Positions 2-17,704 are shown, counted from the first letter of the stretch. The stretch is 64,000 nt of DNA from a virus (IMGVR_UViG_3300032248_000400:9599-73598), one strand, 5' to 3'. A program made the numbers and translations. Notes: generated from the letters alone by a model not told the origin.

Positions 2-370
2 CAGCAACCAGGTTATCCACACTTTTCATTTAGAAACAAAGGAAATGAGTTGAACTATTATGATGAAGAAATTCAATGTACATCACCGCACTTATTAGAT
101 TCATTACATTGGTTAGACCCTTCTGTTGAATTTCCAGATAAGATACAATATTATGGTACTCACTTTCATACAACATCAAGATGGGGGAATTGGACTAATA
201 ATCCAACTATGTACGATAAAGATTTTTATTTACAAACCGTTAGACAATTTGCCGGGGATGGAATAGCATTGGAAGGTAATATATCCAAATGGTGGGCACA
301 GCAAGAATTTGGAGTTGCACATGGTGAAGGATTGTTTAAACATAACGATTATGTAAAATACGGAAAATGA
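2..370 (+). CDS. 5'-truncated CDS, probably a glycosyltransferase-like protein of the glycan cluster
   Basis: Frame is open from position 2 (QQPGYPHFSFRNKGNELNYY...), so the TTG start at 50 is probably internal. Stop overlaps the next ATG. Confidence 0.55.
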   Translation, partial: QQPGYPHFSFRNKGNELNYYDEEIQCTSPHLLDSLHWLDPSVEFPDKIQYYGTHFHTTSRWGNWTNNPTMYDKDFYLQTVRQFAGDGIALEGNISKWWAQQEFGVAHGEGLFKHNDYVKYGK

Positions 371-1731
371 CAAAATTAATTATATTTGATTTAGATGGTG
401 TACTAGTTTCGGCAAAACAAATACACTTTGATACTCTTAATAGAGCCTTATATGAAATAGACCCATATTACATTATATCCGAAGCTGAACATCTTTCAAT
501 ATATGATGGATTAAAGACAACTCAAAAATTAGAACTGCTTACTAAGAATAAAGGATTAGATTCAAAATTTTATGATATTATTTGGAAAACAAAACAAGAT
601 TTGACGATTAGTGCTATTTCACAATTACAACCTGATTTAGAAAAAATTGAATTGTTTAAAGAATTAAGAGATAGAGGATATAAACTAGCATGCGCTTCAA
701 ACTCAATTAGAAGGTCTGTATTAGTTATGTTAGCAAAGATAGGTATAATTGAGTATATGGATTTAATCCTCTCTAATGAGGATGTAAAGAACTCTAAACC
801 ACATCCTGAAATGTATTGGAAGGCAATGAGTATGATGGGATGTTTACCAGAGGAAACTCTTATTGTAGAAGATTCACCACATGGACTTTTAGCCGCAAGT
901 AGAAGTAGAGCAAATATTTTGAGAGTAGATTCTCCAAAAGATTTGGTAATATCAAAAATTATTAGTAAATTAGATGAAACACAAAACACTATGAATATAC
1001 CAAAATGGCAAGGAGGCAAGATGAACATTCTTATTCCAATGGCAGGAGCAGGAAGCCGATTCGCAACAGCGGGTTACACATTTCCTAAACCACTAATTGA
1101 TGTAAAAGGAAAACCAATGATACAAGTTGTAGTTGATAATCTTAATATAGAAGCAACATACATTTATGTCGTTCAAAAAGAACACAGAGCAAAATATAAT
1201 TTGGATACTTTGTTAAACTTAATTACTCCTAATTGTAAAATTGTGGAAATTGAAGGAATCACAGAGGGTGCAGCATGTACTACATTATTAGCAAAAGAAT
1301 TTATTGATTCGGATACTCCATTACTTATGGCAAACTCCGACCAATTTGTAGAATGGGATAGTAATGAGTTTATGTATAAGATGATTGAACAAAAAGTAGA
1401 TGGTGGCATTTTAACATTCATTGGAACACATCCAAAGTATTCATTTGCAAAAGTAGATGAGTATGGATATGTTACTGAAGTCGCAGAGAAGAATCCAATT
1501 TCAGATATTGCAACTGTTGGAATTTATTATTGGTTAAAAGGTTCGGATTATGTAAAATATGCAGAACAAATGATTGATAATAATACTAAAACCAACAATG
1601 AATTTTATGTATGTCCTGTTTATAATGAAGCCATTAATGCTGGTAAAAAAATTAAAATATTCAATATAGATAAAATGTGGTCATTAGGTACACCCGAAGA
1701 TTTAAATTATTATTTAGAAAATTATAAATAA
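367..1731 (+). CDS. HAD-family phosphatase fused to a sugar-phosphate nucleotidyltransferase
   Basis: N-terminal FDLDGVL, KPHPE and VEDS HAD motifs. C-terminal LIPMAGAGSRF...PKPLI NTP-transferase signature. Confidence 0.9.
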   Translation: MTKLIIFDLDGVLVSAKQIHFDTLNRALYEIDPYYIISEAEHLSIYDGLKTTQKLELLTKNKGLDSKFYDIIWKTKQDLTISAISQLQPDLEKIELFKELRDRGYKLACASNSIRRSVLVMLAKIGIIEYMDLILSNEDVKNSKPHPEMYWKAMSMMGCLPEETLIVEDSPHGLLAASRSRANILRVDSPKDLVISKIISKLDETQNTMNIPKWQGGKMNILIPMAGAGSRFATAGYTFPKPLIDVKGKPMIQVVVDNLNIEATYIYVVQKEHRAKYNLDTLLNLITPNCKIVEIEGITEGAACTTLLAKEFIDSDTPLLMANSDQFVEWDSNEFMYKMIEQKVDGGILTFIGTHPKYSFAKVDEYGYVTEVAEKNPISDIATVGIYYWLKGSDYVKYAEQMIDNNTKTNNEFYVCPVYNEAINAGKKIKIFNIDKMWSLGTPEDLNYYLENYK

Positions 1732-2348
1732 TGAAAATTGGCCTAAATATAGTTGGTATAACACATGATGATGGTAGACATACTAATTGGCAAAAATCAA
1801 ATATAAAAGATAATATAATAAATATTCTTAATAAAAAATATGAAGTTAAAACATATTTGACCACATATTTTTCAGATAAAAATACAAAAAAAATAATAAA
1901 GCATTATTCTCCAATTAATGTTAATATATTAGATTGGGAAAATAGTCACCAACTATTGACATATATTGAATCTCTAAAATCATTATTAAATGAAGATTTG
2001 GATATAATAATTTCAACTAGATTTGATATATTTTTTAATCAAACATTTGATGAATTAAATATTGATTTTTCTAAATTTAATTTCTTATGTAAAGAATTAG
2101 ACCATTGGACTGATTATAAATTTACAAATGATAATTTTTACATTTTCCCTAAACAATATTTAGAAGAAGTTATTAACTCAATAGACGAAATGTATCAAAT
2201 CCCACCTAGAAAACATTGTTCAGATATGCATGGGCTGTATAATTTTATTTCATCTAAAATAAATCCAAATAATATTCATTTTATTTCTGAAGACCATATG
2301 TACTCCACAGAAAATAAATTTTATACTTTAACTAGATTTTTATCATAA
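1731..2348 (+). CDS. Glycosyltransferase-like protein (paralog family with 4780, 7064, 8910)
   Basis: MKIGLNIVG start, IISTRFDI motif and NDNF motif shared with the paralogs. Confidence 0.55.
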   Translation: MKIGLNIVGITHDDGRHTNWQKSNIKDNIINILNKKYEVKTYLTTYFSDKNTKKIIKHYSPINVNILDWENSHQLLTYIESLKSLLNEDLDIIISTRFDIFFNQTFDELNIDFSKFNFLCKELDHWTDYKFTNDNFYIFPKQYLEEVINSIDEMYQIPPRKHCSDMHGLYNFISSKINPNNIHFISEDHMYSTENKFYTLTRFLS

Positions 2349-2370
2349 TCAAAAAACAAATTAAAATAAA

Positions 2371-2402
2371 TTTGGAAAAGTTAAAAATTTTTATTAACTT
2401 GT
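2371..2402 (+). promoter_or_regulatory. Bacteroidota-type sigma70 promoter (imperfect -7 box)
   Basis: TTTG 2371-2374, 20-nt spacer, TAACTTG at 2395; intergenic upstream of 2444. Confidence 0.5.
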
Positions 2403-2443
2403 ATAATATTAAATCTAATAAGATTAATTAAAAAATAACCATA

Positions 2444-2893
2444 ATGATATTAATATCACATAGAGGTAATACCAACGGAAAGTTTGAATCATACGAAAAC
2501 GAACCAGCATATATTGACAAAGCAATATTGGAAGGATTTGATGTTGAAATAGATGTGTGGATGGTTGAAGGTCAATTATTTTTAGGACATGATATTCCAC
2601 AATATGGTGTTTCACAACATTGGTTTAGCAAAAGATTACAACATTTATGGATACATTGTAAAAATATAGAAGCAGTGGAATGGTTTAATATGCTTAATAG
2701 TTATCATTATTTTTGGCATGAAGGAGACACATTAACACTTACATCGATGAATGTTATTTGGGCATATCCTGGTAAACAACCAATCAAAGGAAGTATTGCA
2801 GTAATGCCTGAAATTCATAATGATGATTTGGAGAGTTGTATGGGAATTTGTTCGGATTATATAAACAATTATAAAATAAAAAATAATGAATAA
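2444..2893 (+). CDS. GDPD/PI-PLC-like phosphodiesterase-fold protein
   Basis: ISHRGN and DVEIDVW motifs. Confidence 0.75.
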   Translation: MILISHRGNTNGKFESYENEPAYIDKAILEGFDVEIDVWMVEGQLFLGHDIPQYGVSQHWFSKRLQHLWIHCKNIEAVEWFNMLNSYHYFWHEGDTLTLTSMNVIWAYPGKQPIKGSIAVMPEIHNDDLESCMGICSDYINNYKIKNNE

Positions 2894-3239
2894 ATACAAA
2901 AAAAATTATATCATATCTTCTCACAAATACTTTGAATTGTTTGGTAGTTATGATTTAAACGGATTAAAAGAAATCTATGATAGCAAAATCCATCTTATTG
3001 ATTGGAATGGTGAATGGTTAGGTTCAAAATCAGTATTAGAAATGAATGAGAATTTATTTAAAGCAACACCAATTATAACAGTTTTAGAAATAATTCAATC
3101 GGATAAAGAAATTAATGATATTCAAAGAACTTATTGTAAAATTCAAATTGAAATAAATGGTGTTACATTAAAAGTAATGGATGTTATTGATTGGAATGAT
3201 AATCATCAAATTATTAAAATAGAAGCATTTAACGGATAA
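2886..3239 (+). CDS. SnoaL/NTF2-like protein
   Basis: 117 aa, YFELF...DLNGLKEIY...DW pattern and VMDVIDW near the C-terminus. Confidence 0.55.
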   Translation: MNKYKKNYIISSHKYFELFGSYDLNGLKEIYDSKIHLIDWNGEWLGSKSVLEMNENLFKATPIITVLEIIQSDKEINDIQRTYCKIQIEINGVTLKVMDVIDWNDNHQIIKIEAFNG

Positions 3240-3248
3240 ACATAAAAT

Positions 3249-3590
3249 ATGGATATATTTAAAATAGAAGAAATGAAAGGAGGTTGGTTTGCAGGAAATT
3301 TTGAACCAACTGCATTTAAAACTGATAAGTTTGAAGCCGCAATTCATAGTTATAAAATGGGTGAAATAAAAGAAGCACATTTTCATAAAGAAGCAACGGA
3401 AGTTAATTATTTATTAGAAGGTAAATTTGTTCTTCAAAATTATGATGGAAATGGTTCATCAAAAGAATTAAATAAAGGTGATGTATTTATTATACATCCG
3501 TTTGAAATAGCAGACCCTTTGTTTTTAGAAGATTGTAAAATAATAGTTATAAAAACTCCATCAGTAATTGGAGACAAATACATAGTATAA
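3249..3590 (+). CDS. Cupin (RmlC-like) protein
   Basis: GWFAGNF start and HFHKEATEVNYLLEG cupin motif. Confidence 0.8.
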   Translation: MDIFKIEEMKGGWFAGNFEPTAFKTDKFEAAIHSYKMGEIKEAHFHKEATEVNYLLEGKFVLQNYDGNGSSKELNKGDVFIIHPFEIADPLFLEDCKIIVIKTPSVIGDKYIV

Positions 3591-4778
3591 ATGATAAACA
3601 TTTTTAGAAAAGAAGTAGATACAAATAAGTATTTTATTGTAACCTACGAATTAGCATCAGAAACAAATTTAAGAGATGCGGCATGGAATTTGGCAATAGG
3701 TCAAAGTGTAGGAAATCCAAATGTTAGAAACCAATGGGAAACTGATGAGTTGTTTGAAAATCATAGTTGTTTGGTATTGGCAAATGAAGATGAACTTAAA
3801 TCTACCAATAGTGGATTGGTTAACATTGCATTTCCAATTGCAAATATTGATTTTAAAACCGATGGTATTTCACATTTATTAGTGAATATTATGGGTGGAC
3901 AAATGGACATTGATAACATTACTAAATGTGCCGTTAAAGATATTTTCTTTCCACAACATATTGAAGATTTATTCTTAGGGCCTAAATTTGGTATCAAAGG
4001 AATTAGAGAATATACTAAAACATTTGATAAACCATTATTTGGTGCAATCGTAAAACCTAAAATTGGTATTAGTCCAGAAACATTGTTAGAAATGGTTAAA
4101 GAATTAGTAGAAGGTGGAGTAAATTTTATTAAAGAAGATGAGATTATGAGTAATCCGGCTTTTTGTACAATTGAAGAAAGGGTACCATTGATTGCAGAAT
4201 ACCTAAAAGATAAAAATGTAGTTTATTGTGTATCAATTCATTCAGATTATCCACACATTTTAGATAGAGTTAAAAGAGTATATGAATTGGGTGGTAATGG
4301 TGTTCATATCAATTTTTGGTGTGGATTGGGTGTTTATAAAGCAGTAAGAGAATTGGATTTACCTATCTTTATACACTTCCAAAAAAGTGGAGATAAAATT
4401 TTTACAAATAGAAACCATGCGTATTATATCGATTGGACTGTTGTATGTAAATTGGCAGGTATGATGGGAGTTGATTTTATTCATGCTGGTATGATTGGTG
4501 GATATTACAAATGGCCAGAAGATGAAGTTATTGATTCAATGAAAGTATTACATCAATATGGTGTAATGCCTGCATTAAGTTGTGGATTTCAACCTGGTCT
4601 TACTAAATGGGTAACCGATAGAGTTGGTATTGATTATATGGCAAATGTGGGTGGAGCTATACATGGTCATCCAATGGGAACATTATCTGGTGCAAAAGCA
4701 ATGAAACAAAGTATTGATGGGACATATGGTGATGAATATAATCATGCAATTGCAAAATGGGGATTAAAGACTAATTAA
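3591..4778 (+). CDS. RuBisCO-like protein (form IV RLP)
   Basis: IVKPKIG (K175/K177), NFIKEDE (K201/D203/E204), HAG (H327), SCG (S379/G381), GGAIHGHPMG. By manual alignment the loop-6 lysine (K334) position is Y and H294 appears to be Q. Confidence 0.92.
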   Translation: MINIFRKEVDTNKYFIVTYELASETNLRDAAWNLAIGQSVGNPNVRNQWETDELFENHSCLVLANEDELKSTNSGLVNIAFPIANIDFKTDGISHLLVNIMGGQMDIDNITKCAVKDIFFPQHIEDLFLGPKFGIKGIREYTKTFDKPLFGAIVKPKIGISPETLLEMVKELVEGGVNFIKEDEIMSNPAFCTIEERVPLIAEYLKDKNVVYCVSIHSDYPHILDRVKRVYELGGNGVHINFWCGLGVYKAVRELDLPIFIHFQKSGDKIFTNRNHAYYIDWTVVCKLAGMMGVDFIHAGMIGGYYKWPEDEVIDSMKVLHQYGVMPALSCGFQPGLTKWVTDRVGIDYMANVGGAIHGHPMGTLSGAKAMKQSIDGTYGDEYNHAIAKWGLKTN

Positions 4779-4779
4779 T

Positions 4780-5460
4780 ATGAAAGTTGCATTATTATTA
4801 ACCGGATTACCTAGAAAAGTTGAAGAAGGTTATATTCATTATTGGAAACATATTGTAGAAAACTATAATACAGATGTTTACTTACAATATTGGGAAGATG
4901 AAGAATATGAAAAAGTTTTGCAAGTGTATAAACCTGTAAAATACATTCAGGAAAAACCATTTAAATTTACAAAATACAAAGAAGGAATTAATTCTTTTTT
5001 TGCAGATGGTGTTAGACCGGATGATATGTCCAGACCATTACCACAATACGATGTAGCTGGAAATTTTAGAGGATTTCCTATGTTTTATAGTTGGCAAATT
5101 GGATATAATTTAATAGAAGGTGAATATGATTGTATTATAAGAAGTAGATACGATTTGGGTACACAAAATCCAATTAAATTAGAAAATTTAGATTTATCAA
5201 AAATAAACATTTCAAATTGGCATTGGGGTGGTTCGGAAATAATGGATGATAATATTTGTATAACAAACCAAACATTATCAGATATATTATTTAAAGATGT
5301 ATTTGATGAATTTATAAATTATTCAAAACAAACAGGTAAAATATTTTTTCAAGAAAAGAATTTTACTGAAATTTTAAATAGAAAAAATTTAAATAACTAT
5401 ATTTGTAAAACAAACGAATTGCCATTCACCTTATTAAGAGAGATGGGATTATGGTATTAA
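4780..5460 (+). CDS. Glycosyltransferase-like protein
   Basis: MKVALLLTGLPR start, PMFYS and YDCIIRSRYDL motifs typical of phage glycan clusters. Confidence 0.55.
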   Translation: MKVALLLTGLPRKVEEGYIHYWKHIVENYNTDVYLQYWEDEEYEKVLQVYKPVKYIQEKPFKFTKYKEGINSFFADGVRPDDMSRPLPQYDVAGNFRGFPMFYSWQIGYNLIEGEYDCIIRSRYDLGTQNPIKLENLDLSKINISNWHWGGSEIMDDNICITNQTLSDILFKDVFDEFINYSKQTGKIFFQEKNFTEILNRKNLNNYICKTNELPFTLLREMGLWY

Positions 5461-5470
5461 AACAAAAAAT

Positions 5471-6661
5471 ATGAAAAAAATAAACACACCAATTCAATTA
5501 TTTAAAGTGCATATGAATCCAAATGCAAAAATTGAAGTTGGTAAAATATTAGACAGTGGTTATATAGGACAAGGGCCTAAAGTAGATGAATTTGAAGTAA
5601 AATTAAATGAATACTTTAATTCGGATAGAGTTGTAACGCTTAATTCAGGTACATCTGGATTACATCTTGCATTACATCTATTAAAGAAATCATCGAATCC
5701 AGTAACGGCCGATGGTTATTCGGTTCATGAAAGAAATTGGCCAGGTATTCAAAGTGGTGATGAAATACTTGCAACTGCATTAACTTGTACCGCATCCAAC
5801 TGGCCTATACTTGCAAACGGATTAAAAATTAAATGGGTAGATATTGATGAGAAAACTCTTAATATGGACTTAGATGATTTAGAAAGAAAAATTTCACCAA
5901 ACACAAAAGCAATTATTGCAGTACATTGGGGAGGGTATCCATTGGATTTAGATAGATTGAAAAAAATACAAGATAAATCATTTGAGTTATATGGATTTAG
6001 ACCTGCAATCATAGAAGATGGGGCACACTCATTTGGTTCCGAATATAAAGGAAAAAAATTGGGTAATCACGGAAATATGGTTATGTATTCTTTACAGGCA
6101 ATCAAACACATTACTGCAATTGATGGTGGATTATTAATATTACCACATCAGGATTTATACAATAGAGCAAAGTTAATTCGTTGGTATGGTATTGACAGAG
6201 GTGGTAATAGAAAAGATTTTCGTTGTGAAGCGGATATTGTAGAGTGGGGATTTAAGTTCCATATGAATGATGTATGTGCAACGGTTGGTATGGAGAATTT
6301 AAAAGACGCTGAAACCATTATTGGAAAACATAGAGCAAACGCTAAATTTTATGATGAGAATTTAAAAGGTGTTAATGGTGTAACTCTATTAGAAAGAAAC
6401 CCAAACCATAATTCTGCATTTTGGATTTATAGTTTATTGGTTGAAAATAGAGATGGATTCTATAAACATATGAAAGATTGTGGAATTGTAGTATCACAGG
6501 TTCACGAAAGAAATGATAAACATACGGCAGTAAAAGAGTTTAGAAGTCCATTACCTACATTGGATAGAGTATTACCAAAAGTAGTTTCAATACCAGTAGG
6601 TTGGTGGATAACCGAAGAAGAAAGACAATACATCGTTGATTGTATTAAAAAAGGTTGGTAA
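5471..6661 (+). CDS. DegT/DnrJ/EryC1/StrS-family PLP sugar aminotransferase
   Basis: NSGTSGLHLAL, VHWGG, IIEDGAHSFG, SLQAIKHIT (PLP lysine). Confidence 0.93.
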   Translation: MKKINTPIQLFKVHMNPNAKIEVGKILDSGYIGQGPKVDEFEVKLNEYFNSDRVVTLNSGTSGLHLALHLLKKSSNPVTADGYSVHERNWPGIQSGDEILATALTCTASNWPILANGLKIKWVDIDEKTLNMDLDDLERKISPNTKAIIAVHWGGYPLDLDRLKKIQDKSFELYGFRPAIIEDGAHSFGSEYKGKKLGNHGNMVMYSLQAIKHITAIDGGLLILPHQDLYNRAKLIRWYGIDRGGNRKDFRCEADIVEWGFKFHMNDVCATVGMENLKDAETIIGKHRANAKFYDENLKGVNGVTLLERNPNHNSAFWIYSLLVENRDGFYKHMKDCGIVVSQVHERNDKHTAVKEFRSPLPTLDRVLPKVVSIPVGWWITEEERQYIVDCIKKGW

Positions 6662-7080
6662 TGAATTTAAGACAATTATCCATATCAGATTTATCATTTT
6701 TGTTAGAAGTCAGGAACGATGAAACAACAAGAGTAAATTTAGAAAACGATTCGGTATTTACATTAGCACAATGTGAAGAATGGTTTTTAATTAGGGAACC
6801 AAAGTGGTATATAATTGAAATTGATGGTAGTAGGGTTGGGTATATCAGAACAAATGGTGTTGAAGTTGGTATAGATATTCATCCAAATTATAGAAGAAAT
6901 GGATATGCAAGAGAAGCATATAAACTTTATTTAAAAGATAAACAATATGCATCTCTTTGGGTATTTGTTGATAATTTTGCCAAAACACTTTATACTCGAT
7001 TGGGATTTATAGAAAACGGAAATAAAAAAATAATTAGAGATAGAGAATACATACAAATGATTTATGAAAATAGGAATTAA
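6661..7080 (+). CDS. GNAT N-acetyltransferase (PseH-like)
   Basis: IHPNYRRNGYA acetyl-CoA motif; follows the aminotransferase. Confidence 0.8.
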   Translation: MNLRQLSISDLSFLLEVRNDETTRVNLENDSVFTLAQCEEWFLIREPKWYIIEIDGSRVGYIRTNGVEVGIDIHPNYRRNGYAREAYKLYLKDKQYASLWVFVDNFAKTLYTRLGFIENGNKKIIRDREYIQMIYENRN

Positions 7081-7777
7081 TTTAGTCGGCATATCTTATA
7101 ACGATGGTATAAATGGTGGTAGATATAGAAATTATCAGGATGCCATAGATGGATTTATGTTGAATATTGTCAATCCTTTAAAAAAAGAAGGCCACGAAAT
7201 AATATTTTACATTTATAGTTACGATAATATCAAAAAAAATGATATTTTAGAAGCATATCAACCTGTTAAAAAATATCATTTTACAGAACCATCAAATATA
7301 ACAATGGCCGGCCGAGATAAGTTACCAAATGGATTTAAAATGGTATCTTCAATGTATATTGGTAGTTTAATTGAACTTAAAGATGAAAATTTAGATTTAG
7401 TAATATCAACTCGTTTTGATATTAATTTTTTGAAAAATCCATTTAAAAAATATAATTATGATTTTACCAAATTTAATTTTTTATGGAGAGAACCTTACTT
7501 AACTCATATACCACTTATAACAGATGTATTTGTAGTATTTCCATATTCAATGTTAGATAATGTAATTGAATCTATTAAAGAACTGGAATTTAATCCAAAA
7601 GATGATATAAATATTTCAATGCACAATTGGTATGCACCTATGGTAAATCAAGTTGGAAAAGAAAATGTTCAATGGGTTTGTGATGAATTTCCTGATTCAA
7701 TTAGTAATGATGTATATAAATTAATGAGAAGTGAAGAGGGCCAGATTATTTACAATGATGGCCAAAAAGCCAATTAA
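7064..7777 (+). CDS. Glycosyltransferase-like protein, close paralog of 8910..9584
   Basis: MKIGINLVG, LDLVISTRFDINF, FLWREP, VGKENVQWVCDEF. Confidence 0.55.
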   Translation: MKIGINLVGISYNDGINGGRYRNYQDAIDGFMLNIVNPLKKEGHEIIFYIYSYDNIKKNDILEAYQPVKKYHFTEPSNITMAGRDKLPNGFKMVSSMYIGSLIELKDENLDLVISTRFDINFLKNPFKKYNYDFTKFNFLWREPYLTHIPLITDVFVVFPYSMLDNVIESIKELEFNPKDDINISMHNWYAPMVNQVGKENVQWVCDEFPDSISNDVYKLMRSEEGQIIYNDGQKAN

Positions 7778-7790
7778 AAAAATAAACACT

Positions 7791-8900
7791 ATGGAAAATA
7801 ATAGAGAACATTGTGTTTTGTGTGGTTCTGAAATTGTAGACAAATATACAACTAAAATGCCTGTATTTATGGGCACTATTGAAAATATTTTTAATTATAA
7901 AACAAATTCTTATACAATATGTGAATGTGTTAAGTGTGGTGAAATTATGATTAAAGAACTATTAAATTTAAAAGATGTTTATTTAAATAATCATAATATT
8001 GATGTTGTTGGTAATCTATGGAGTAATCATTATAATCAGTTTTCAAATTTTATTTTAAATGATATTGAAGATAAAATAATATTGGAAATTGGCGACCCAT
8101 CTGCAAAAATTGCAAGTATATCTAAAAAATTTAAAAAATGGTATATTGTAGAGCCAAATTTTAACAAATCAAATACGGATAATATTATTTTTATAAATAA
8201 TTTTTTTGATAATTCATTTGATACTATAAAAGATGTTGATGTTATTATCCATTCACATTACTTTGAACATTCATATGACCCAAATCAATTTTTAAAAAAA
8301 TGTAATGAAAATTTAAAAAATGATGGAACTATGTTTATGAGTGTTCCAAATATGGAATATCTTTTAAATAATAAAAAACAAATAGCATCTATACTTCATT
8401 TTGAGCATACGTTTTATTTAAATGACGAAATTATTACTTATTTATTAAATAAAAATGGATTTTCAATTGAATTGAAAGAAAATTATGAAAATCATTCTAT
8501 TTTTTATAAAATTAAAAAAACAGACAAATCAATAAAAAATATAAAATTAAAAATTTCATCTAAATTTAATAATACTTGGAATAAAACATTAATTAATATT
8601 CAAAATATAAATAACATATTAAAAAATATCAATCATACAAATATTTACATTTATGGTGCACATGTAAATACACAATTTTATTTATATAATGGAATTGATA
8701 TTAATAAAATAAAAGGAATTATAGATAATTCAAAAAGCAAAAAAAATAAAATACTTTATGGAACTAATAAAATGGTTAATAGTCCAGATAGTATTGAAAA
8801 TATGGATGAATGTATTGTTATTTGTAGTCACACCGGTGTATATTATAATGAAATATCACAACAATTAAAAAGTATAAATAAAAAAATAAAAATAATATAA
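7791..8900 (+). CDS. SAM-dependent methyltransferase, NDP-hexose C-methyltransferase-like
   Basis: N-terminal CxxC...CxxC, ILEIG motif, HYFEH, HFEHTFY, C-terminal IYGA...IIDN Rossmann-like domain. ATG 7791 preferred over 7731. Confidence 0.75.
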   Translation: MENNREHCVLCGSEIVDKYTTKMPVFMGTIENIFNYKTNSYTICECVKCGEIMIKELLNLKDVYLNNHNIDVVGNLWSNHYNQFSNFILNDIEDKIILEIGDPSAKIASISKKFKKWYIVEPNFNKSNTDNIIFINNFFDNSFDTIKDVDVIIHSHYFEHSYDPNQFLKKCNENLKNDGTMFMSVPNMEYLLNNKKQIASILHFEHTFYLNDEIITYLLNKNGFSIELKENYENHSIFYKIKKTDKSIKNIKLKISSKFNNTWNKTLINIQNINNILKNINHTNIYIYGAHVNTQFYLYNGIDINKIKGIIDNSKSKKNKILYGTNKMVNSPDSIENMDECIVICSHTGVYYNEISQQLKSINKKIKII

Positions 8901-8909
8901 AAACAACTT

Positions 8910-9584
8910 ATGAAAATAGGAATCAATTTAAACGGAGTATCGTATCACGATGGTTCAAGTTATAGACGTAGAAATTACGCAGATTCAATTGAAGGATTTA
9001 CAAATAATGTAATTAATCCACTTAAAGAAGCCGGACATGAAATATCATATTATTTATTTACATATGAGTCAGAAAAAAAGGATGAAATATTAAAAGCATA
9101 TAATCCAGTAAAATCAACATTCATTGCAACTGAAAGTAATTATAATAATTTAACAAGTGGTGATAGACTTCCAAATGGTTATAGAATGATGACGTTAACA
9201 ACAATAAATTCATTAAACGAATTAGTAGAGGAAGATTTGGATTTAGTTATATCTACAAGATTTGATATTAATTTTTTTAAAAATCCATTTGAAGAATACA
9301 ATTATGATTTTAGCAAATGTAACTTTTTGTGGAGAGAACCCGAATTTACTGATTTACCAATAGTTAATGATACGTTTATTGTATTTCCACATCATATGAT
9401 TGTCAGTTTAATGGAATCACTTATGGAACAAGAGGAAAATCCACCATATGGTGTAAATCCAGGAAATCATAACATTTATTTACCAATGATTAATAAAGTT
9501 GGAAAAGAAAATGTTCAATGGGTTTGTGATGAATTTGTAAATGTTAATACTAATACTTTATATAAATTAATGAGAAATGAGTAA
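8910..9584 (+). CDS. Glycosyltransferase-like protein, close paralog of 7064..7777
   Basis: Same motifs, plus a ~40-bp identical DNA block. Confidence 0.55.
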   Translation: MKIGINLNGVSYHDGSSYRRRNYADSIEGFTNNVINPLKEAGHEISYYLFTYESEKKDEILKAYNPVKSTFIATESNYNNLTSGDRLPNGYRMMTLTTINSLNELVEEDLDLVISTRFDINFFKNPFEEYNYDFSKCNFLWREPEFTDLPIVNDTFIVFPHHMIVSLMESLMEQEENPPYGVNPGNHNIYLPMINKVGKENVQWVCDEFVNVNTNTLYKLMRNE

Positions 9585-10344
9585 ATTAATAAGTGGTTAT
9601 TTATGGGCGTGGACAAACTATGAAGCCGGTCAAAAATCGGTTGGTAGTTTAAAGAAATTTTATCCAGATGCGGATATTTTTATAAATGTAGATTATGATG
9701 GAGATGTAACAAATTATGAAAAAATTTGTGATAAAAATGGATATACATTTAGTAGAAATAATTTTCAATTAGGATATTGTGGAAACTTTGGAAGTATAAA
9801 TGTTGGTAGAGATTGCTGGTCAAAGGAATCTACTTTTGAATGGGTTAGGGGAATATATGAAGCATGTTTTAAAACTGATTCAAAATATATTATACTATTA
9901 GAAGAGGATGATTTTATATTAAAACCAATTTCACAATTGCAAGAAGATGTTTCAATATCAATTCATCCAACGGCACCATCACCAACAGGTAGAAATAGAC
10001 CAAATGCAATACCAAACGCATTTACATTATATATAAATGATAATGATGGAAATCCTCTTTCACCAGGATATGCAGCAGGCGGTGGATGTTTTTTTAATAG
10101 AGAAGAATTCATAAAAGCTTGGGAAAATAATAAAGAAAAACTTTGGAAAGATTATGATTATTTAAAAAGTATAGACAAAATTATTGGTTGGGCCGATTAT
10201 ATATTACAATTCATCATGCAATTGGAAGGATATGAAGTAGTTCAAAATCACAAATTGTGTGAACATTGGGAATTAGGAGATAAATGGAATGAATTTGAAA
10301 TCGTAACAGGAATGAAAGATGTTGAAATAATAAAAAATTTATAA
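9577..10344 (+). CDS. Glycosyltransferase-like protein (GT-A fold)
   Basis: YIILLEEDD DxD-like motif; cluster context. Confidence 0.55.
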   Translation: MSKLISGYLWAWTNYEAGQKSVGSLKKFYPDADIFINVDYDGDVTNYEKICDKNGYTFSRNNFQLGYCGNFGSINVGRDCWSKESTFEWVRGIYEACFKTDSKYIILLEEDDFILKPISQLQEDVSISIHPTAPSPTGRNRPNAIPNAFTLYINDNDGNPLSPGYAAGGGCFFNREEFIKAWENNKEKLWKDYDYLKSIDKIIGWADYILQFIMQLEGYEVVQNHKLCEHWELGDKWNEFEIVTGMKDVEIIKNL

Positions 10345-10347
10345 AAT

Positions 10348-11025
10348 ATGAAAGGATATATTAATGGAAATGATAGATACAAAGTTACAAAAATTGTAGG
10401 AAGATACACATATGGTGATGAATTGATTACTATAAAAGAGCCTGGCGCCGATTTAACAATTGGTAGTTTTTGCGCCATAGGTCAATCTGTTAAAGTAATT
10501 TTGGGTTCATATCATAGAGTCGATTGGATAACATCTTTCCCCTTTGGTCAAAATAGTACGGATGTATTTACAAAGTTCAATCATTTACCATATAATTCAC
10601 ACAATGTTACTGTTACAAATGGTGATATTGTTATTGGTAATGATGTTTGGTTGGGCGATTGTGTAACTATTATGAGTGGTGTTACAATAGGACATGGTTG
10701 TGTTATTGGTGCACATAGTGTTGTGGCAAAAGATATTCCACCATATAGTGTTGTAGTGGGTAATCCGGGTAAAATAATAAGAAAGAAATTTAATGATGAC
10801 GATATTGAATTTTTATTAAATTTAAAATGGTGGGATTTACAAGATAGTATAATTAATGAAATTACTCCTATATTGTGTTCTGGAAATATTCAAAAATTAA
10901 GAGAATATTTTGAAATAAATCAAAAAATTTATATTGATAATCCAATTAATAAAAAATTAATATTAGATTGGTCAAATACAAGATGGAGTGATGGAAGCAA
11001 TTGTCCAATTGGATATAATACATAA
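10348..11025 (+). CDS. Hexapeptide-repeat O-acetyltransferase (CatB/Vat-like)
   Basis: GDIVIGNDVWLG...GVTIGHGCVIGAHSVVAKDIPPYSVVVGNPGK, LKWWD. Confidence 0.9.
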   Translation: MKGYINGNDRYKVTKIVGRYTYGDELITIKEPGADLTIGSFCAIGQSVKVILGSYHRVDWITSFPFGQNSTDVFTKFNHLPYNSHNVTVTNGDIVIGNDVWLGDCVTIMSGVTIGHGCVIGAHSVVAKDIPPYSVVVGNPGKIIRKKFNDDDIEFLLNLKWWDLQDSIINEITPILCSGNIQKLREYFEINQKIYIDNPINKKLILDWSNTRWSDGSNCPIGYNT

Positions 11026-11040
11026 TTAAAAAGTTATAAT

Positions 11041-11895
11041 ATGAAAGATGTAGTTATGGGGTGTATAACTGAATACACATTTGAACAAATAAAATTGTTT
11101 GTAAATTCAGTAGATAGAAGTGGATTCACCGGCCACAAAGTAATGATAGTTTATAATGTACCATTTTCAACTGTTGATGAATTGAGAAAACGAGAATGGA
11201 TTGTAGTTGCATTTAATGAAGATGTTCAAAATCAGAGATACACATATAGAGATAATTTTATAGTTACCGTTGATAGGCATTTGCACTATTATCTTACTTT
11301 AAAGCAATTAGCAGAAGAAACACCAGAAGGATTGAGATATGTATTAGCATTAGACCCAAAGGATGTAATATTCCAATACAATCCATCGGAGTGGTTAGAA
11401 AAAAATATAGGTGATAAAAAAATTAATGCAGGATGCGAGAGTGTTAAATATAAACACGAAGTTTGGGGTAGAAGTAATATGATTGAAAGTTTTGGCGAAG
11501 TTGTGTATGATAGATGTAAAGATAACATAACAGTAAACGCAGGAACAATATCAGGTGATTGGAAAACAATGTCTGAATTATTTTTGAATGTATATATAAT
11601 GTGCCAAGGAAGTCCAAGTGCAACTCCAGACCAAGCGGCAGTTAATGTGGCTTTATCATTTTCTCCATATAGAGAATTGACAAGATTCACAATGTCTGAG
11701 GAAGGATGGGCTGCACAATGTGGAACAACTGTTGACCCACGAATGGTTAATCAATATGGTGATAATTTATTAGAACCTGCACCGATTATGGAAGGAGATG
11801 TAGTTAAAACCAGTAAGGGTATTCCATTTGCAATTGTACATCAATATGATAGGATACCTGAGTGGAATAAAATAATTAGACAAAAATATAAATAA
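11041..11895 (+). CDS. Glycosyltransferase-like protein
   Basis: LDPKDVIFQYNP, VNAGTISG, DQAAVN, IVHQYDR motifs. Confidence 0.65.
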   Translation: MKDVVMGCITEYTFEQIKLFVNSVDRSGFTGHKVMIVYNVPFSTVDELRKREWIVVAFNEDVQNQRYTYRDNFIVTVDRHLHYYLTLKQLAEETPEGLRYVLALDPKDVIFQYNPSEWLEKNIGDKKINAGCESVKYKHEVWGRSNMIESFGEVVYDRCKDNITVNAGTISGDWKTMSELFLNVYIMCQGSPSATPDQAAVNVALSFSPYRELTRFTMSEEGWAAQCGTTVDPRMVNQYGDNLLEPAPIMEGDVVKTSKGIPFAIVHQYDRIPEWNKIIRQKYK

Positions 11896-11898
11896 GTT

Positions 11899-12387
11899 AT
11901 GATTATAGGTAAAGGCGATATCGCATCTATTTTGAACGATAGAGAAGGTGCAATATTTTTTGCATCTGGGGTTTCGAAAAGTAGTGAAACAAATGAGGCT
12001 GAATTTAATCGTGAAATTGAATTATTAAATAAGCAAGATAAAACTAAGTGTTTATTTTATTTCAGCTCTATTTCAATAGATGATACTCAAAAATTGTCAA
12101 ATAGATATTTACAACATAAAAAGAGTATGGAGGAATTAGTTAAATCCAATTTTAAAAATCATAACATCATACGAATTGGAAATATTACGTGGGGTAGTAA
12201 TCCAAACACTTTTATTAACTACATTAGGAACAAAATTAAAAATGGAGAACCTGTTGAAATAAAAGATGAGTTTAAGTATCTAATTGATAAAGAGCAATTG
12301 CTTCTATTAACCAATAATTTACCACTAACAGGTCAAAACAAAATAAGTATATTCGGGAGAATGGCCAAAGTAAAGGAATTGATATGA
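11899..12387 (+). CDS. Short NAD-dependent epimerase/dehydratase-like protein
   Basis: IIGKGDIA, FASGVS, FYFSS, YxxxK (YLQHK). Confidence 0.6.
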   Translation: MIIGKGDIASILNDREGAIFFASGVSKSSETNEAEFNREIELLNKQDKTKCLFYFSSISIDDTQKLSNRYLQHKKSMEELVKSNFKNHNIIRIGNITWGSNPNTFINYIRNKIKNGEPVEIKDEFKYLIDKEQLLLLTNNLPLTGQNKISIFGRMAKVKELI

Positions 12388-13277
12388 TAGAAATTGTAAT
12401 TTGGATAGCACCAACCGATATAGATGATTTAGAAAAGTCTTTGAATAGATTGAATATTGGAAAAGATTATCTAACAAAAGAACAATGTGACAATATTAAA
12501 TTCAATGTTGTTATGTGTGTTTCTGATGAAATAATTGATTGGAGTAAAAGTAGTGTTACGATTGAAGAAGTTACTGAAAAATTCTTAAAATTAAAACCAT
12601 TAACCGATTGGGCATCTCCTGGTATTTTTGAAACTACAACTACGATTAATGGTTGCACTTCTATGAGAAGATTATCTGGCTATTCTGATTCAAACTATTA
12701 TTTATGGTTAGATACTGATATTATATTTGACCCATTAACATTGGCACATTCAATAAATTCGATAGATATAATTGAAGGTGCTGGTATTACTAAATTTGTA
12801 TCTATTCCTGAAATTGTAAGACAATGGGATTCTACTTGGGATTGTTTAGTTAATGAACGATTTATAAATAAACCAATTGGATATCAGGCAACGAATAATC
12901 CACATATAGATGCTATTATTTACGATGAACCTGTATTGGAAGAAGTTCGTAATAATGTTTCAGGTCAACCATATATGAAATTTGGTGGTGGGTGGTTTGC
13001 ATTGATTTCAAAAGAATTAATGAAAACAATACCATTTCCAACGAACTATGGCCATTACGGATTGGATGATACCTATTTAATGTGGGGAGCAGAAATTTTG
13101 CAAGACCCAATGATAAAACAATTCAAAATAAAAAATATAATTGTATGTGAAAACTACTACGATAGAGGTATTACATACCCCAATCAGATACAATTTATAG
13201 ATAGAAGAGAGGAATATAAAAAGTATAATACGGAATTGGCCAATATTGCATTGGAAAATTTATTAAAGAATAAATAA
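12384..13277 (+). CDS. GT2-like glycosyltransferase
   Basis: YLWLDTDIIF, GGGWF, GHYGLDDTY. Confidence 0.65.
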   Translation: MIEIVIWIAPTDIDDLEKSLNRLNIGKDYLTKEQCDNIKFNVVMCVSDEIIDWSKSSVTIEEVTEKFLKLKPLTDWASPGIFETTTTINGCTSMRRLSGYSDSNYYLWLDTDIIFDPLTLAHSINSIDIIEGAGITKFVSIPEIVRQWDSTWDCLVNERFINKPIGYQATNNPHIDAIIYDEPVLEEVRNNVSGQPYMKFGGGWFALISKELMKTIPFPTNYGHYGLDDTYLMWGAEILQDPMIKQFKIKNIIVCENYYDRGITYPNQIQFIDRREEYKKYNTELANIALENLLKNK

Positions 13278-13699: not shown

Positions 13700-14004
13700 T
13701 GGAAAATATCTACTCTGTATTAATAACAGCAATAAGCGTATTAGGTGGAACTACTGCGTTTCGTTTCTATGAAAAAAGATCAATGAGAAAAGAAAGAGAT
13801 GATGAATTTATTCGTCACGATTGTAAAGACCGTATCGCTAAATTAGAAGCCCTTTTAGAAGATTCATCTAAAGAAAAGGATATATTAAGAATTATGATAT
13901 TAGATTTAACTAAGAATGTTGCTGAGTTATCTGTTAAAGTTGAGTTTCTTACAAAAGAAAACGAAAAGCTATCAAAAACAACTAAGAAACAATTGAATGG
14001 GTAA
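13699..14004 (+). CDS. Membrane-anchored coiled-coil protein
   Basis: N-terminal hydrophobic helix followed by heptad repeats. Confidence 0.5.
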   Translation: MENIYSVLITAISVLGGTTAFRFYEKRSMRKERDDEFIRHDCKDRIAKLEALLEDSSKEKDILRIMILDLTKNVAELSVKVEFLTKENEKLSKTTKKQLNG

Positions 14005-14857: not shown

Positions 14858-14866
14858 GTTATAAAT

Positions 14867-15256: not shown

Positions 15257-15306
15257 TTAAAAAATAAATTTGATATACTTATTAGTATAAACAAATAGTT
15301 ATTAGT

Positions 15307-16879: not shown

Positions 16880-16898
16880 AATTGTATATATTTGTTGT

Positions 16899-17673: not shown

Positions 17674-17680
17674 AGAAATG

Positions 17681-17704
17681 GGGAAATAACTTTCCCTTTT
17701 TTTA
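17681..17704 (+). terminator. Intrinsic terminator
   Basis: GGGAAA-TAAC-TTTCCC followed by a T run. Confidence 0.8.

What the first reader, a model, noticed from the sequence alone, without database searches (positions are those of the whole stretch)
2444..4778. Virus-borne RuBisCO-like protein embedded in a nucleotide-sugar biosynthesis operon
Seen: GDPD-like, SnoaL-like, cupin and RLP genes overlap or nearly abut (the cupin stop at 3590 is followed directly by the RLP ATG at 3591). They share one candidate promoter and sit next to a HAD-nucleotidyltransferase fusion and many glycosyltransferases. The RLP keeps K175/K177, K201-x-D203-E204, H327 and S379/G381, but by manual alignment has Y at K334 and Q/K at H294/R295. 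Known: form IV RLPs lacking K334 do not fix CO2; characterised ones are methionine-salvage enolases/isomerases or act in sugar-acid catabolism. Inference: no methionine-salvage or catabolic genes are nearby, so this RLP may have an anabolic role, making an unusual (possibly branched or isomerised) sugar or polyol phosphate that is activated by the nucleotidyltransferase and transferred onto virion or host glycans.
Basis: partly seen in the sequence, partly recalled or inferred. Interest (0 to 1): 0.88.

Follow-up and report, generated by a model that had tools for sequence, protein, structure and literature searches.

The report
Phage RuBisCO-like sugar-activation cassette
A large T4-like phage carries an intact RuBisCO relative that cannot fix CO2 and that sits, here and in many other phages, some tiny archaea and one cultured actinomycete, beside a sugar-activating enzyme, a small cupin and a miniature phosphodiesterase, which suggests an untested sugar-building job for the RuBisCO fold.

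Summary
Window 2444-4778 encodes four abutting genes: a 149-aa miniature GDPD-like phosphodiesterase, a 117-aa SnoaL-like protein, a 113-aa cupin and a 395-aa RuBisCO-like protein (RLP). The residue calls are correct: K175, K177, K201, D203, E204, H327, S379 and G381 are kept, while H294 is Q, R295 is K and K334 is Y.

The RLP belongs to a well-supported separate clade with one uniform active-site signature. It scores below every curated cutoff for MtnW, OiaX and form III.

In 46 dereplicated viral loci, a homologous nucleotidyltransferase (NTase) lies nearby in 44, the cupin in 35 and the mini-GDPD in 36. RLP-NTase, NTase-cupin and HAD-NTase fusions exist. The full four-gene set also occurs in the cultured Nonomuraea rosea JCM 17326, and RLP with the NTase recurs in DPANN archaea. 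The nearest outgroup RLPs sit in sugar-catabolic operons with kinases.

Best reading: an enolising keto-sugar-phosphate isomerase or epimerase that feeds a nucleotide-sugar for the phage's glycosyltransferase island. The substrate is unknown.

Phage RLPs were published in 2019 (Jaffe et al.) without a function. This scan has already reported the same cassette on many other genomes. The SnoaL-like gene and the "single promoter" are not conserved or supported features.

The parts
367..1731 (+). HAD (beta-phosphoglucomutase-family) domain fused to a sugar-1-phosphate-type nucleotidyltransferase. It is the only NTase in the 73.6-kb record.
   Evidence: HAD_2 6.6e-30 and NTP_transferase 3.4e-12. 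NCBIfam bPGM-family score 82 bits, below cutoff. The NTase domain is 39-65% identical to RLP-linked NTases. The family profile hits PDB 4evw at 1.2e-36, then GDP-Man pyrophosphorylase, RmlA and HddC-type enzymes. No second NTase in the record.
1731..2348 (+). 205-aa protein of unknown family. It is a paralog of 7064-7777 and 8910-9584 and is not part of the conserved cassette.
   Evidence: No Pfam or NCBIfam hit. Its family occurs in only 4 of 83 loci.
2349..2443 (.). 95-bp AT-rich intergenic gap, the only sizeable spacer in the gene row. A promoter here is possible but untested.
   Evidence: Sequence read. Promoter-like sites are not enriched over shuffles.
2444..2893 (+). Miniature GDPD-like phosphodiesterase (149 aa), a conserved cassette member.
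   Evidence: Invariant H6, R7, E18, N19, E35, D37, G48, H49, H71 and K73 (alignment A1). GDPD PDB hits at 1.7e-4. AF2 pLDDT 96, with GDPDs as top Foldseek hits. Present in 36 of 46 dereplicated loci. Orthologs in Nonomuraea (BLASTP E 2.6e-30) and in L168.
2886..3239 (+). SnoaL/NTF2-like small protein (117 aa), a local accessory.
   Evidence: SnoaL_2 1.6e-3. ESM Atlas score 0.96 to SnoaL_2 clusters. Found in 1 of 83 loci.
3249..3590 (+). Small metal-binding cupin (113 aa), a putative sugar-phosphate isomerase and a conserved cassette member. Its stop codon abuts the RLP start codon.
   Evidence: Cupin_2 2.6e-6. Invariant H44-x-H46...E51 (alignment A2). AF2 pLDDT 94. The closest small structures are Thermococcus phosphomannose isomerases 7zvm and 7zvy (TM 0.68) and KdgF. 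It lies directly upstream of the RLP in 25 of 46 loci, plus 2 more as NTase-cupin fusions. Fused to the NTase in at least 7 loci.
3591..4778 (+). RuBisCO-like protein (395 aa) of the phage-type clade. It keeps the Mg/carbamate enolisation core and lacks the carboxylation and C-C cleavage residues.
   Evidence: PF00016 2.2e-32. Residue map. Clade supported at SH-aLRT 100. Below all NCBIfam cutoffs.
4780..5460 (+). 226-aa protein of an unassigned viral family (motif GQxR..DxFxHxW..YDxVxRxRxD). It is a frequent neighbour of the cassette and is fused to the mini-GDPD in one locus.
   Evidence: Family present in 36 loci. Alignment A4. No PDB or Pfam relative. Only viral clusters in ESM Atlas. L008 carries a 356-aa fusion.
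5471..7080 (+). DegT-type aminotransferase (5471-6661) and GNAT acetyltransferase (6655-7080). These are downstream tailoring enzymes of the same gene row, given as context.
   Evidence: DegT_DnrJ_EryC1 6.5e-69 and Acetyltransf_1 4e-7.

Best explanation
The RLP is the signature enzyme of a conserved four-gene cassette: nucleotidyltransferase, small cupin, RLP and miniature GDPD-like phosphodiesterase. The cassette most likely makes an unusual nucleotide-activated sugar for the glycosyltransferases of the surrounding island.

Proposed order of steps (inferred, not shown):
1. The RLP uses its retained Mg2+/carbamate core (K175, K177, K201, D203, E204) to enolise a keto-sugar phosphate. It then reprotonates it, acting as an isomerase or epimerase. 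It has lost the residues RuBisCO needs for CO2 addition and C-C cleavage (E60, N123, H294, K334). Clade-invariant Q264 and Y305 replace H294 and K334.
2. The cupin interconverts ketose and aldose phosphate.
3. In this phage, the HAD domain fused to the nucleotidyltransferase acts as a phosphatase or mutase and delivers the sugar 1-phosphate.
4. The nucleotidyltransferase forms the NDP-sugar.

The role of the mini-GDPD is open. One possibility is hydrolysis of a cyclic or diester phosphate intermediate or by-product.

What is shown: gene identities, active-site content, clade membership, conserved linkage and fusions. What is inferred: the reaction, the substrate and the acceptor.
For: Active site. 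The enolisation core is invariant across 40 clade members, and the carboxylation residues are uniformly replaced.

Linkage in 46 dereplicated viral loci (RLPs under 90% identical):
- NTase present in 44, and within 3 genes of the RLP in 40.
- Cupin present in 35.
- Mini-GDPD present in 36.
- All three present in 26.
- Cupin directly upstream of the RLP in 25, plus 2 more as NTase-cupin fusions.

Fusions:
- P0122 (667 aa) is RLP plus NTase.
- NTase-cupin proteins of 346-471 aa occur in at least 7 loci.
- HAD-NTase occurs here and in L005, L006 and L012, and NTase-HAD in L024.

Same partners outside viruses:
- Nonomuraea rosea JCM 17326 has mini-GDPD, RLP, cupin (hhalign E 1.5e-44) and NTase, followed by a GT2.
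- DPANN MAGs have the RLP plus an orthologous NTase. One of them also has a GHMP-kinase-NTase fusion, a full-length GDPD, a GT2 and an FkbM methyltransferase.
- Bacterial metagenome loci L168 and L169 carry the RLP with a cupin-sized gene and an NTase. The cupin ortholog was confirmed in L169 and the mini-GDPD ortholog in L168.

NTase type. Its family profile is closest to anomeric sugar-1-phosphate NTases (E 1e-11 to 1e-8). IspD and TarI score only 1e-5 to 4e-4.

Outgroups. The nearest outgroup RLPs lie in sugar operons with kinases. P0134 sits with an FGGY kinase, a split transketolase, a class II aldolase and a GPI-type cupin directly upstream. P0201 sits with a PFK-family kinase, an SDR and an ABC sugar transporter. 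This fits a keto-sugar-phosphate substrate.

Context here. Glycosyltransferases, methyltransferases, DegT, GNAT and an acetyltransferase surround the cassette.
Against: - No biochemical data exist for any member of this clade.
- The core cassette has no kinase or mutase, so the source of a sugar 1-phosphate is unexplained in most loci.
- The role of the GDPD-like protein does not follow from any known nucleotide-sugar pathway.
- The NTase-cupin pair works without an RLP in cultured cyanophage Bellamy, and HAD-NTase occurs without RLP or cupin in S-CAM9. The RLP is therefore an optional add-on, not a necessary step of the NTase pathway.
- The position equivalent to H327 varies within the clade (H in 27 and Q in 13 of 40 sequences).
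- Neighbours beyond the core vary even among RLPs that are 91% identical.
Confidence: 0.55

Rival explanations
1. Salvage or catabolic auxiliary gene. The RLP-cupin pair recycles a by-product of infection, such as 5-methylthioribulose-1-P or 5-deoxyribulose-1-P from SAM-dependent enzymes, or ribose phosphates from nucleotide turnover. This would resemble the DeepYkr RLP plus cupin methylsulfurylase of the MTA-isoprenoid shunt, or the form III nucleoside pathway.
For: An RLP next to a cupin is exactly the arrangement of the Rhodospirillum and Rhodopseudomonas MTA-isoprenoid shunt (PMC5893883). The best HMM and PDB scores of the RLP are to form III enzymes. SAM-dependent methyltransferases, and in some loci radical-SAM genes, are frequent neighbours. 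The Nonomuraea locus adds a SAH-hydrolase-like enzyme and a nucleoside-kinase-like protein.
Against: No MtnP, MtnA, MtnK, AMP phosphorylase or R15P isomerase was seen in the window or in the related loci whose genes were scanned against Pfam. The clade is separate from all other RLP groups in the tree. Fusion to, and near-universal linkage with, a nucleotidyltransferase has no place in a salvage route. The phage cupin has no detectable sequence similarity to the GPI-type cupin of the catabolic sister locus. Its similarity to the methylsulfurylase could not be tested.
Confidence: 0.12
2. The chemistry is the same, but the activated sugar is used to hypermodify phage DNA rather than virion or host glycans, as with glycosylated hydroxymethyl-pyrimidines in T4-like phages.
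For: The phage is T4-like, with a clamp loader just upstream. A ThyA-family gene of unusual length (383 aa) lies in the window, and another lies about 5 kb downstream of the RLP in L002. In several loci the cassette sits beside replication genes, namely a DnaB-like helicase and phage replication genes.
Against: The cassette also occurs in Nonomuraea and DPANN loci with GT2, FkbM and other surface-glycan-type genes. The island here has amino-sugar, acetyl and methyl tailoring genes typical of glycans. No DNA glycosyltransferase was identified.
Confidence: 0.12
3. The RLP works on a bisphosphate of the RuBP type, for example by epimerising ribulose-1,5-bisphosphate to xylulose-1,5-bisphosphate. 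The fused HAD then removes one phosphate before nucleotidyl transfer.
For: K175, K177 and K201 are all retained as in true RuBisCO, which is unusual for RLPs. HAD domains are fused to the NTase in two independent orientations. The HAD is of the family that also gives weak NCBIfam matches to a ribulose-1,5-bisphosphate 5-phosphatase model, among many sugar phosphatases. Outgroup P0201 sits next to a PFK-type kinase, an enzyme type that makes ketose 1,6-bisphosphates.
Against: The distal phosphate site is not conserved: R295 is K, R or S, H298 is D, and H327 is H or Q. Most cassettes have no HAD. No source of RuBP is encoded.
Confidence: 0.08
4. The gene is a decaying or non-catalytic RuBisCO remnant with no enzymatic role.
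For: Several canonical RuBisCO residues are missing.
Against: The frame is full length. 76 columns are invariant across 40 homologs of 55-91% identity, including the metal and carbamate residues. There are thousands of close homologs in metagenomes. Synteny and fusions are conserved.
Confidence: 0.03

Closest known systems
'Form IV-like' RuBisCO-related proteins of phages and Beckwithbacteria (Jaffe, Castelle, Dupont & Banfield 2019, Mol Biol Evol; PMC6389311)
   Same: They are phage-encoded, found on IMG/VR contigs including roughly 200-kb myovirus-type genomes. They are highly divergent from other RLPs, keep some RuBisCO residues and lack others, and have no known function. This window is an IMG/VR record of a T4-like phage, and its RLP forms a separate clade.
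   Different: In the passages read, the paper reports the clade without assigning a function or describing the nucleotidyltransferase, cupin and GDPD partners, the fusions, or the Nonomuraea and DPANN cassettes. Identity with their sequences could not be checked directly because no sequences were at hand.
DeepYkr RLP (5-methylthioribulose-1-P 1,3-isomerase) with adjacent cupin methylsulfurylase; MTA-isoprenoid shunt of Rhodospirillum rubrum and Rhodopseudomonas palustris (PMC5893883)
   Same: An RLP that enolises and isomerises a 1-phospho-2-ketose is encoded next to a small cupin that acts on its product. This is the best functional analogy for an RLP-cupin pair.
   Different: That pathway is salvage and needs MtnP and MtnA, which are absent here. 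It has no nucleotidyltransferase and no GDPD. The phage clade is separate from the other RLP groups in the tree.
Bifunctional type II phosphomannose isomerase / GDP-mannose pyrophosphorylase (ManC/AlgA type), and the GDP-heptose route GmhA-HddA-GmhB-HddC (own knowledge)
   Same: These combine a nucleotidyltransferase with a cupin sugar-phosphate isomerase, sometimes in one polypeptide. The heptose route uses an isomerase, an anomeric kinase, a HAD phosphatase and an NTase. Here there are NTase-cupin fusions, HAD-NTase fusions, a GHMP-kinase-NTase fusion in a DPANN locus and an HddA-like kinase in the window.
   Different: The cupin does not reach the PF01050 model, and the fused proteins have no ManC-type Pfam hit. 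No known pathway of this kind contains a RuBisCO-fold enzyme or a GDPD-like protein.
Characterised catabolic RLPs: MtnW (DK-MTP-1-P enolase) and OiaX (3-oxo-isoapionate-4-P decarboxylase)
   Same: They share the fold and Mg/carbamate-dependent enolisation of an alpha-phospho-ketone. Identity is 28-30%.
   Different: NCBIfam scores are 149 bits (MtnW model NF007095, cutoff 409), 122.5 bits (TIGR03332, cutoff 513.6) and 140 bits (OiaX, cutoff 700). The active-site signature differs: K177 is kept, and Q and Y sit at the H294 and K334 positions. The genomic context is different.
Form III RuBisCO of the archaeal/CPR nucleoside (AMP) pathway
   Same: It gives the highest HMM and PDB scores: rubisco_III 177 bits, 8dht 1.5e-36 and T. 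kodakarensis 3a13 2.9e-35. The K175-K177-K201-D203-E204 core is identical.
   Different: The score is below the cutoff of 497. E60, N123, H294, R295 and K334 are replaced, so carboxylation is not expected. No AMP phosphorylase or R15P isomerase is present.

Membership tests
RuBisCO large-subunit superfamily | Catalytic TIM-barrel domain (PF00016) plus N-terminal domain (PF02788) | tested here: met
   PF00016 scores 113 bits (cutoff 30.1). PF02788 scores 20.8 bits (cutoff 20.7).
Bona fide RuBisCO (forms I-III) | Complete catalytic set including E60, N123, H294, R295 and K334 | tested here: not met
   E60G, N123G, H294Q, R295K and K334Y, aligned together with canonical form III sequences. NCBIfam rubisco_III scores 177 bits against a cutoff of 497.
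Bona fide RuBisCO (forms I-III) | Carbamylatable K201 with Mg ligands D203 and E204, and K175 | tested here: met
   K181, D183, E184 and K155 are invariant in 40 of 40 clade members.
MtnW/YkrW DK-MTP-1-P enolase | Score above the curated equivalog cutoffs, and placement in the clade | tested here: not met
   NF007095 scores 149 bits (cutoff 409). TIGR03332 scores 122.5 bits (cutoff 513.6). In the tree, the group with the MtnW-like signature (my own reading; N123K, K177V) lies far from the phage clade.
OiaX 3-oxo-isoapionate-4-P decarboxylase | Score above the curated cutoff | tested here: not met
   140 bits against a cutoff of 700. Identity to annotated OiaX on plasmids is 28-30%.
DeepYkr MTRu-1-P 1,3-isomerase | Clade membership, and co-occurrence with mtnP/mtnA and the cupin methylsulfurylase | tested here: inconclusive
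   No reference sequence or model was available. An adjacent cupin is present, but no mtnP or mtnA was found. No R. rubrum-type RLP is among the 60 best PDB matches.
Phage 'form IV-like' RLP clade (Jaffe et al. 2019) | Phage-encoded, divergent outgroup-like RLPs with a partial RuBisCO residue set | tested here: inconclusive
   The description matches. It comes from the same source collection (IMG/VR), where 208 stretches encode relatives. The published sequences could not be compared.
Glycerophosphodiester phosphodiesterase (GDPD) family, for the 149-aa protein | Catalytic motifs HR(G)..EN..ExD..HD | tested here: met
   H6, R7, E18, N19, E35, D37 and H49 are invariant. They align to the same motifs of 7e0v and 3i10.
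Glycerophosphodiester phosphodiesterase (GDPD) family, for the 149-aa protein | Full-length (beta/alpha)8 barrel of about 240 aa matching PF03009 | tested here: not met
   The protein is 149 aa with no Pfam hit. The Foldseek TM-score normalised to the target is only 0.14-0.39 for the listed GDPD-type hits. The PDB profile match covers only the first 53 positions.
Cupin superfamily, for the 113-aa protein | Double-stranded beta-helix with an HxH...E metal motif | tested here: met
   Cupin_2 scores 27.5 bits (cutoff 27.2). H44, H46 and E51 are invariant. 281 PDB cupin matches have E <= 1e-3.
Type II phosphomannose isomerase cupin (PF01050) | Match to the MannoseP_isomer model | tested here: not met
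   No PF01050 hit for the cupin or for the NTase-cupin fusions. There is only fold-level likeness to Thermococcus PMI.
Sugar-1-phosphate nucleotidyltransferase (PF00483) | N-terminal GxGxR...PK signature and the domain match | tested here: met
   PF00483 scores 46.9 bits. The motif P-x-A-G-x-G-x-R-F...PKP is conserved. The profile hits 4evw at 1.2e-36, and then RmlA and GDP-Man pyrophosphorylases.
Beta-phosphoglucomutase (HAD) equivalog | Score above the curated cutoff | tested here: not met
   TIGR01990 scores 74.7 bits (cutoff 189). TIGR02009 scores 82.4 bits (cutoff 153). This gives family-level membership only, so mutase and phosphatase cannot be told apart.

The most novel reading that the evidence does not exclude
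The RuBisCO fold has a widespread anabolic use. The RLP epimerises or isomerises a 1-phospho-2-ketose, and the cupin interconverts that ketose phosphate with an aldose phosphate. Together they would turn a common host sugar phosphate into a rare one that the nucleotidyltransferase activates directly, without a dedicated kinase or mutase. The mini-GDPD would resolve a cyclic or diester phosphate intermediate. This would be a new route to nucleotide-sugars, used by abundant marine and freshwater T4-like phages, DPANN archaea and some actinomycetes to build surface or DNA glycans.
Probability: 0.12. Interest if true: 0.85.

Novelty: new variant of a known kind. Interest (0 to 1): 0.62.

Why it matters
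Every characterised RuBisCO-like protein works in salvage or catabolism. A clade that is wired, and sometimes fused, to a sugar-activating enzyme inside glycan gene islands would give the RuBisCO fold a biosynthetic role and probably define a new nucleotide-sugar.

The family is abundant. The first search returned 2594 cluster representatives (clusters at 90% identity), many from ocean surveys, and 208 IMG/VR stretches encode relatives. The product may therefore be a common component of phage or infected-cell surfaces in aquatic systems.

The cassette also occurs in a cultured strain, Nonomuraea rosea JCM 17326, and cultured cyanophage Bellamy carries the NTase-cupin pair without the RLP. This makes the question directly testable.

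Two points limit novelty. The phage RLP clade was published in 2019, and this scan has already flagged the same cassette on many other genomes.

Tried and rejected
- Complex prediction of an RLP dimer with the cupin gave no verdict. It is not used as evidence either way.
- tblastn of the RLP against 50,697 GenBank phage records found nothing.
- The plasmid collection holds only OiaX-type RLPs at 28-30% identity.
- The promoter and terminator scan was uninformative: 52 sites against 52.5 expected, and one terminator-like site on the wrong strand.
- The 226-aa neighbour family has no PDB relative and only unnamed viral clusters in ESM Atlas.
- The GPI-type cupin of the sister catabolic locus shows no significant profile similarity to the phage cupin (probability 1%). 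The cupin pairing in the two clades is an analogy of fold, not shown homology.
- The apparent mini-GDPD-RLP fusion P0150 lies on a contig where the RLP is split into two ORFs. I do not count it as a reliable fusion.
- The 158-aa gene after the NTase in L169 is not a mini-GDPD.
- The Tabita et al. 2007 review (for the 'IV-GOS' group) and the Carter et al. 2018 apiose paper are not held. Identity with IV-GOS and an apiose link for the sister operon remain untested recollections.
- A CO2-fixing RuBisCO is rejected on residues.


Full report
**What the window is.** The window is bases 9599-73598 of a 73.6-kb linear IMG/VR virus record that CheckV rates 33% complete. GC is about 30%, and essentially all long ORFs are on the + strand. 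A clamp loader (AAA plus Phage_clamp_A) and a PD-(D/E)XK nuclease lie just upstream. A DNA ligase, a ThyA-family gene, an endolysin and a CobS-like ATPase lie downstream. Together these mark a large T4-like phage. The ligase is closest to an uncultured 595-kb phage and to phages of Alphaproteobacteria.

**The observation.** ORFs 2444-2893, 2886-3239, 3249-3590 and 3591-4778 overlap or abut exactly as described. The cupin TAA at 3588-3590 is followed directly by the RLP ATG.
- The 395-aa protein matches both RuBisCO large-subunit domains.
- The 113-aa protein is a cupin with an invariant HxH...E motif and a confident model.
- The 149-aa protein has no Pfam hit, but its family keeps the GDPD catalytic motifs as invariant. 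Its profile hits solved GDPDs, and its model (pLDDT 96) finds GDPDs first. It is a GDPD barrel cut to about 60% of normal length.
- The 117-aa protein is SnoaL/NTF2-like on weak Pfam evidence plus Atlas evidence.
- The residue calls were verified against T. kodakarensis RbcL and against canonical form III enzymes in one alignment. K175, K177, K201, D203, E204, H327, S379, G381, G403 and G404 are kept. The changes are E60G, T65N, W66P, N123G, H294Q, R295K, H298D, K334Y and G380C.
- The 'single promoter' is not supported, because promoter-like sites match chance expectation.

**Which RLP it is.** NCBIfam scores fall far below every curated cutoff:

| Model | Score (bits) | Cutoff (bits) |
|---|---|---|
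| Form III | 177 | 497 |
| MtnW (NF007095) | 149 | 409 |
| MtnW (TIGR03332) | 122.5 | 513.6 |
| OiaX | 140 | 700 |

The exhaustive representative search found a set at 36-66% identity and then a drop to about 31-33%. I built a 143-row tree from viral loci, representatives and named genomes. In it, 41 rows form one clade with SH-aLRT 100: the viral sequences, two SAR11/alphaproteobacterial single-cell contigs, four DPANN MAG sequences (Woese-, Pace- and Nanoarchaeia-type plus one unclassified archaeon), Nonomuraea and unnamed metagenomic representatives. All of the complete sequences in the clade share one active-site signature: G-N-P-G at the four N-terminal-domain sites (E60, T65, W66, N123), KKKDE in the core, Q-[K/R/S]-[H/Q]-Y, then S-C-G. 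The clade is not nested in any other RLP group or in bona fide RuBisCO. One caveat applies: no DeepYkr reference sequence was available.

**Linkage.** IMG/VR holds 208 stretches that encode relatives, and I analysed the best 80. I dereplicated to 46 loci with RLPs under 90% identical and at least 3 kb on both sides:

| Partner | Loci of 46 |
|---|---|
| NTase anywhere in locus | 44 |
| NTase within 3 genes of the RLP | 40 |
| Cupin present | 35 |
| Cupin directly upstream of the RLP | 25 (plus 2 as NTase-cupin fusions) |
| Mini-GDPD present | 36 |
| All three present | 26 |

The next most common neighbours are generic tailoring enzymes, counted on the raw set of 83 loci: an SDR epimerase/dehydratase in 33 loci and two methyltransferase families in 30 and 27 loci. 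The SnoaL-like gene and the 205-aa gene are local features, found in 1 and 4 loci.

Fusions tie the partners together:
- P0122 is RLP plus NTase.
- NTase-cupin proteins occur in at least seven loci.
- HAD is fused to the NTase at either end.
- One apparent mini-GDPD-RLP fusion is unreliable because the RLP on that contig is split.

**Beyond viruses.**
- Nonomuraea rosea JCM 17326, a cultured isolate, has mini-GDPD, RLP, cupin and NTase in a row. These are followed by a GT2, a SAH-hydrolase-like enzyme and a nucleoside-kinase-like protein, on a segment flanked by an integrase and a transposase.
- Three DPANN MAGs have the RLP next to an orthologous NTase. One of them adds a GHMP-kinase-NTase fusion, a full-length GDPD, a GT2, an FkbM methyltransferase and a B12-radical-SAM enzyme.
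- Two bacterial metagenome loci repeat the set.
- The sister sequence P0134 lies in a sugar-catabolic operon, directly after a GPI-type cupin. That operon also has an FGGY kinase, a split transketolase, a class II aldolase, glycoside hydrolases and an ABC transporter.
- Another outgroup, P0201, sits between an SDR and a PFK-family kinase.

The relatives outside the clade therefore handle phosphorylated keto-sugars. The clade itself has moved into a biosynthetic context.

**The partners.** The NTase family profile hits the uncharacterised structure 4evw at 1.2e-36 over its full length. It then hits anomeric sugar-1-phosphate NTases (GDP-mannose pyrophosphorylases, RmlA, an HddC-like enzyme, GlmU). 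IspD and TarI score much more weakly. This favours an NDP-aldose-type product over a CDP-polyol.

In this phage the only NTase is the HAD-fused form. That form also exists at about 60% identity in cultured cyanophages such as S-CAM9 and S-PRM1, in glycosyltransferase clusters with neither RLP nor cupin. Cyanophage Bellamy has an NTase-HAD fusion followed by a cupin ortholog, again without an RLP. The NTase-cupin pair is therefore a working unit on its own, reminiscent of bifunctional PMI/GDP-mannose pyrophosphorylases. The RLP is an added step.

**Mechanism.** The residues RuBisCO uses to enolise its substrate are kept. Those used for CO2 addition, hydration and C-C cleavage are replaced by clade-invariant Q264 and Y305 and by an invariant GQSVGNP..R loop from the N-terminal domain. 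The proximal phosphate site (G381, G403, G404) is kept, while the distal one is not conserved.

From established RuBisCO and RLP enzymology, I infer enolisation of a phosphorylated alpha-hydroxy-ketone followed by reprotonation. That makes the enzyme an isomerase or epimerase. The cupin would then carry out ketose-aldose interconversion, and the NTase would perform activation. The HAD here would supply the 1-phosphate, acting as a phosphatase or a mutase. The role of the mini-GDPD is unexplained. These steps are inference, and no member of the clade has been assayed.

**Comparison with what is known.** Phage RLPs were reported by Jaffe et al. (2019) as a divergent form IV-like clade of unknown function. 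The literature searches found no paper that assigns a function or describes the cassette. The RLP-plus-cupin pairing has a precedent in the MTA-isoprenoid shunt, which is a salvage pathway.

This scan has already followed up the same cassette on many other genomes and reached the same reading. My tests here are independent repeats. They add the complete cassette in Nonomuraea rosea, the Bellamy comparator without an RLP and the PFK-linked outgroup.

**Verdict.** The feature is real and conserved, and it has no assigned function. A biosynthetic role is the best-supported reading (0.55). The substrate, the product and the acceptor remain open.

Noticed in passing
window 13997-18670: A second sugar-activation module lies in the same island. 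It has a DUF2608 protein (13997-14857), an APS-kinase-like P-loop protein (14867-15256), an HddA-like heptose-7-P kinase (15836-16879; 341 bits, cutoff 600), a second cupin with D-lyxose/mannose-6-P isomerase-type hits (16899-17270) and a CTP_transf_like nucleotidyltransferase (18221-18670).
   Followed up: partly
window 61348-62499: A ThyA-family protein of 383 aa matches the thymidylate synthase model in two stretches, so it carries an insertion. It could be a thymidylate synthase or a pyrimidine hydroxymethylase, which bears on possible DNA modification.
   Followed up: no
P0183; loci L179 1873-3624 and L180 262-2013: A metagenomic 583-aa protein fuses a TIR domain to a RuBisCO-like protein whose K201 position is F. 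It is followed by a histidine phosphatase and, in L180, a 746-aa protein. This may be a defence-type operon that uses the RuBisCO fold.
   Followed up: partly
L091 (Nonomuraea rosea JCM 17326) 7462-12908: A cultured actinomycete carries the complete cassette, followed by a GT2, a divergent SAH-hydrolase-like enzyme and a deoxynucleoside-kinase-like protein. The segment is flanked by an integrase and a transposase. The genome also has a second RuBisCO-family gene elsewhere.
   Followed up: partly
L176 (Synechococcus phage Bellamy) 3835-5309; L165 (S-CAM9) 7001-8386: Cultured cyanophages carry the NTase-HAD plus cupin pair (Bellamy genes 206-207), or the HAD-NTase alone (S-CAM9), inside glycosyltransferase clusters with no RLP.
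   Followed up: partly
window 4780-5460 and 36 related loci (alignment A4): An unassigned viral protein family of about 220-290 aa has the motif GQxR..DxFxHxW..YDxVxRxRxD. It is a frequent neighbour of the cassette and is fused to the mini-GDPD in L008. It has no Pfam or PDB relative.
   Followed up: partly
window 1731-2348, 7064-7777, 8910-9584: Three paralogous genes of unknown family are interleaved with the tailoring enzymes of the island. The family occurs in only 4 of 83 loci.
   Followed up: no
P0157, P0187 (metagenomic): These are fusions of an IF-2B-family (ribose-1,5-bisphosphate isomerase-like) domain with a form III-type RuBisCO. That puts two consecutive steps of the nucleoside pathway in one protein.
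   Followed up: no
L085 (Pelagibacteraceae single-cell assembly AG-447-J13) 2175-5584: A 7.3-kb contig of a SAR11 single-cell genome carries NTase-RLP-mini-GDPD-epimerase. Its RLP and NTase are 72% and 78% identical to those of viral loci. It is either a phage caught in an infected cell or a host copy, which is a clue to the host.
   Followed up: no
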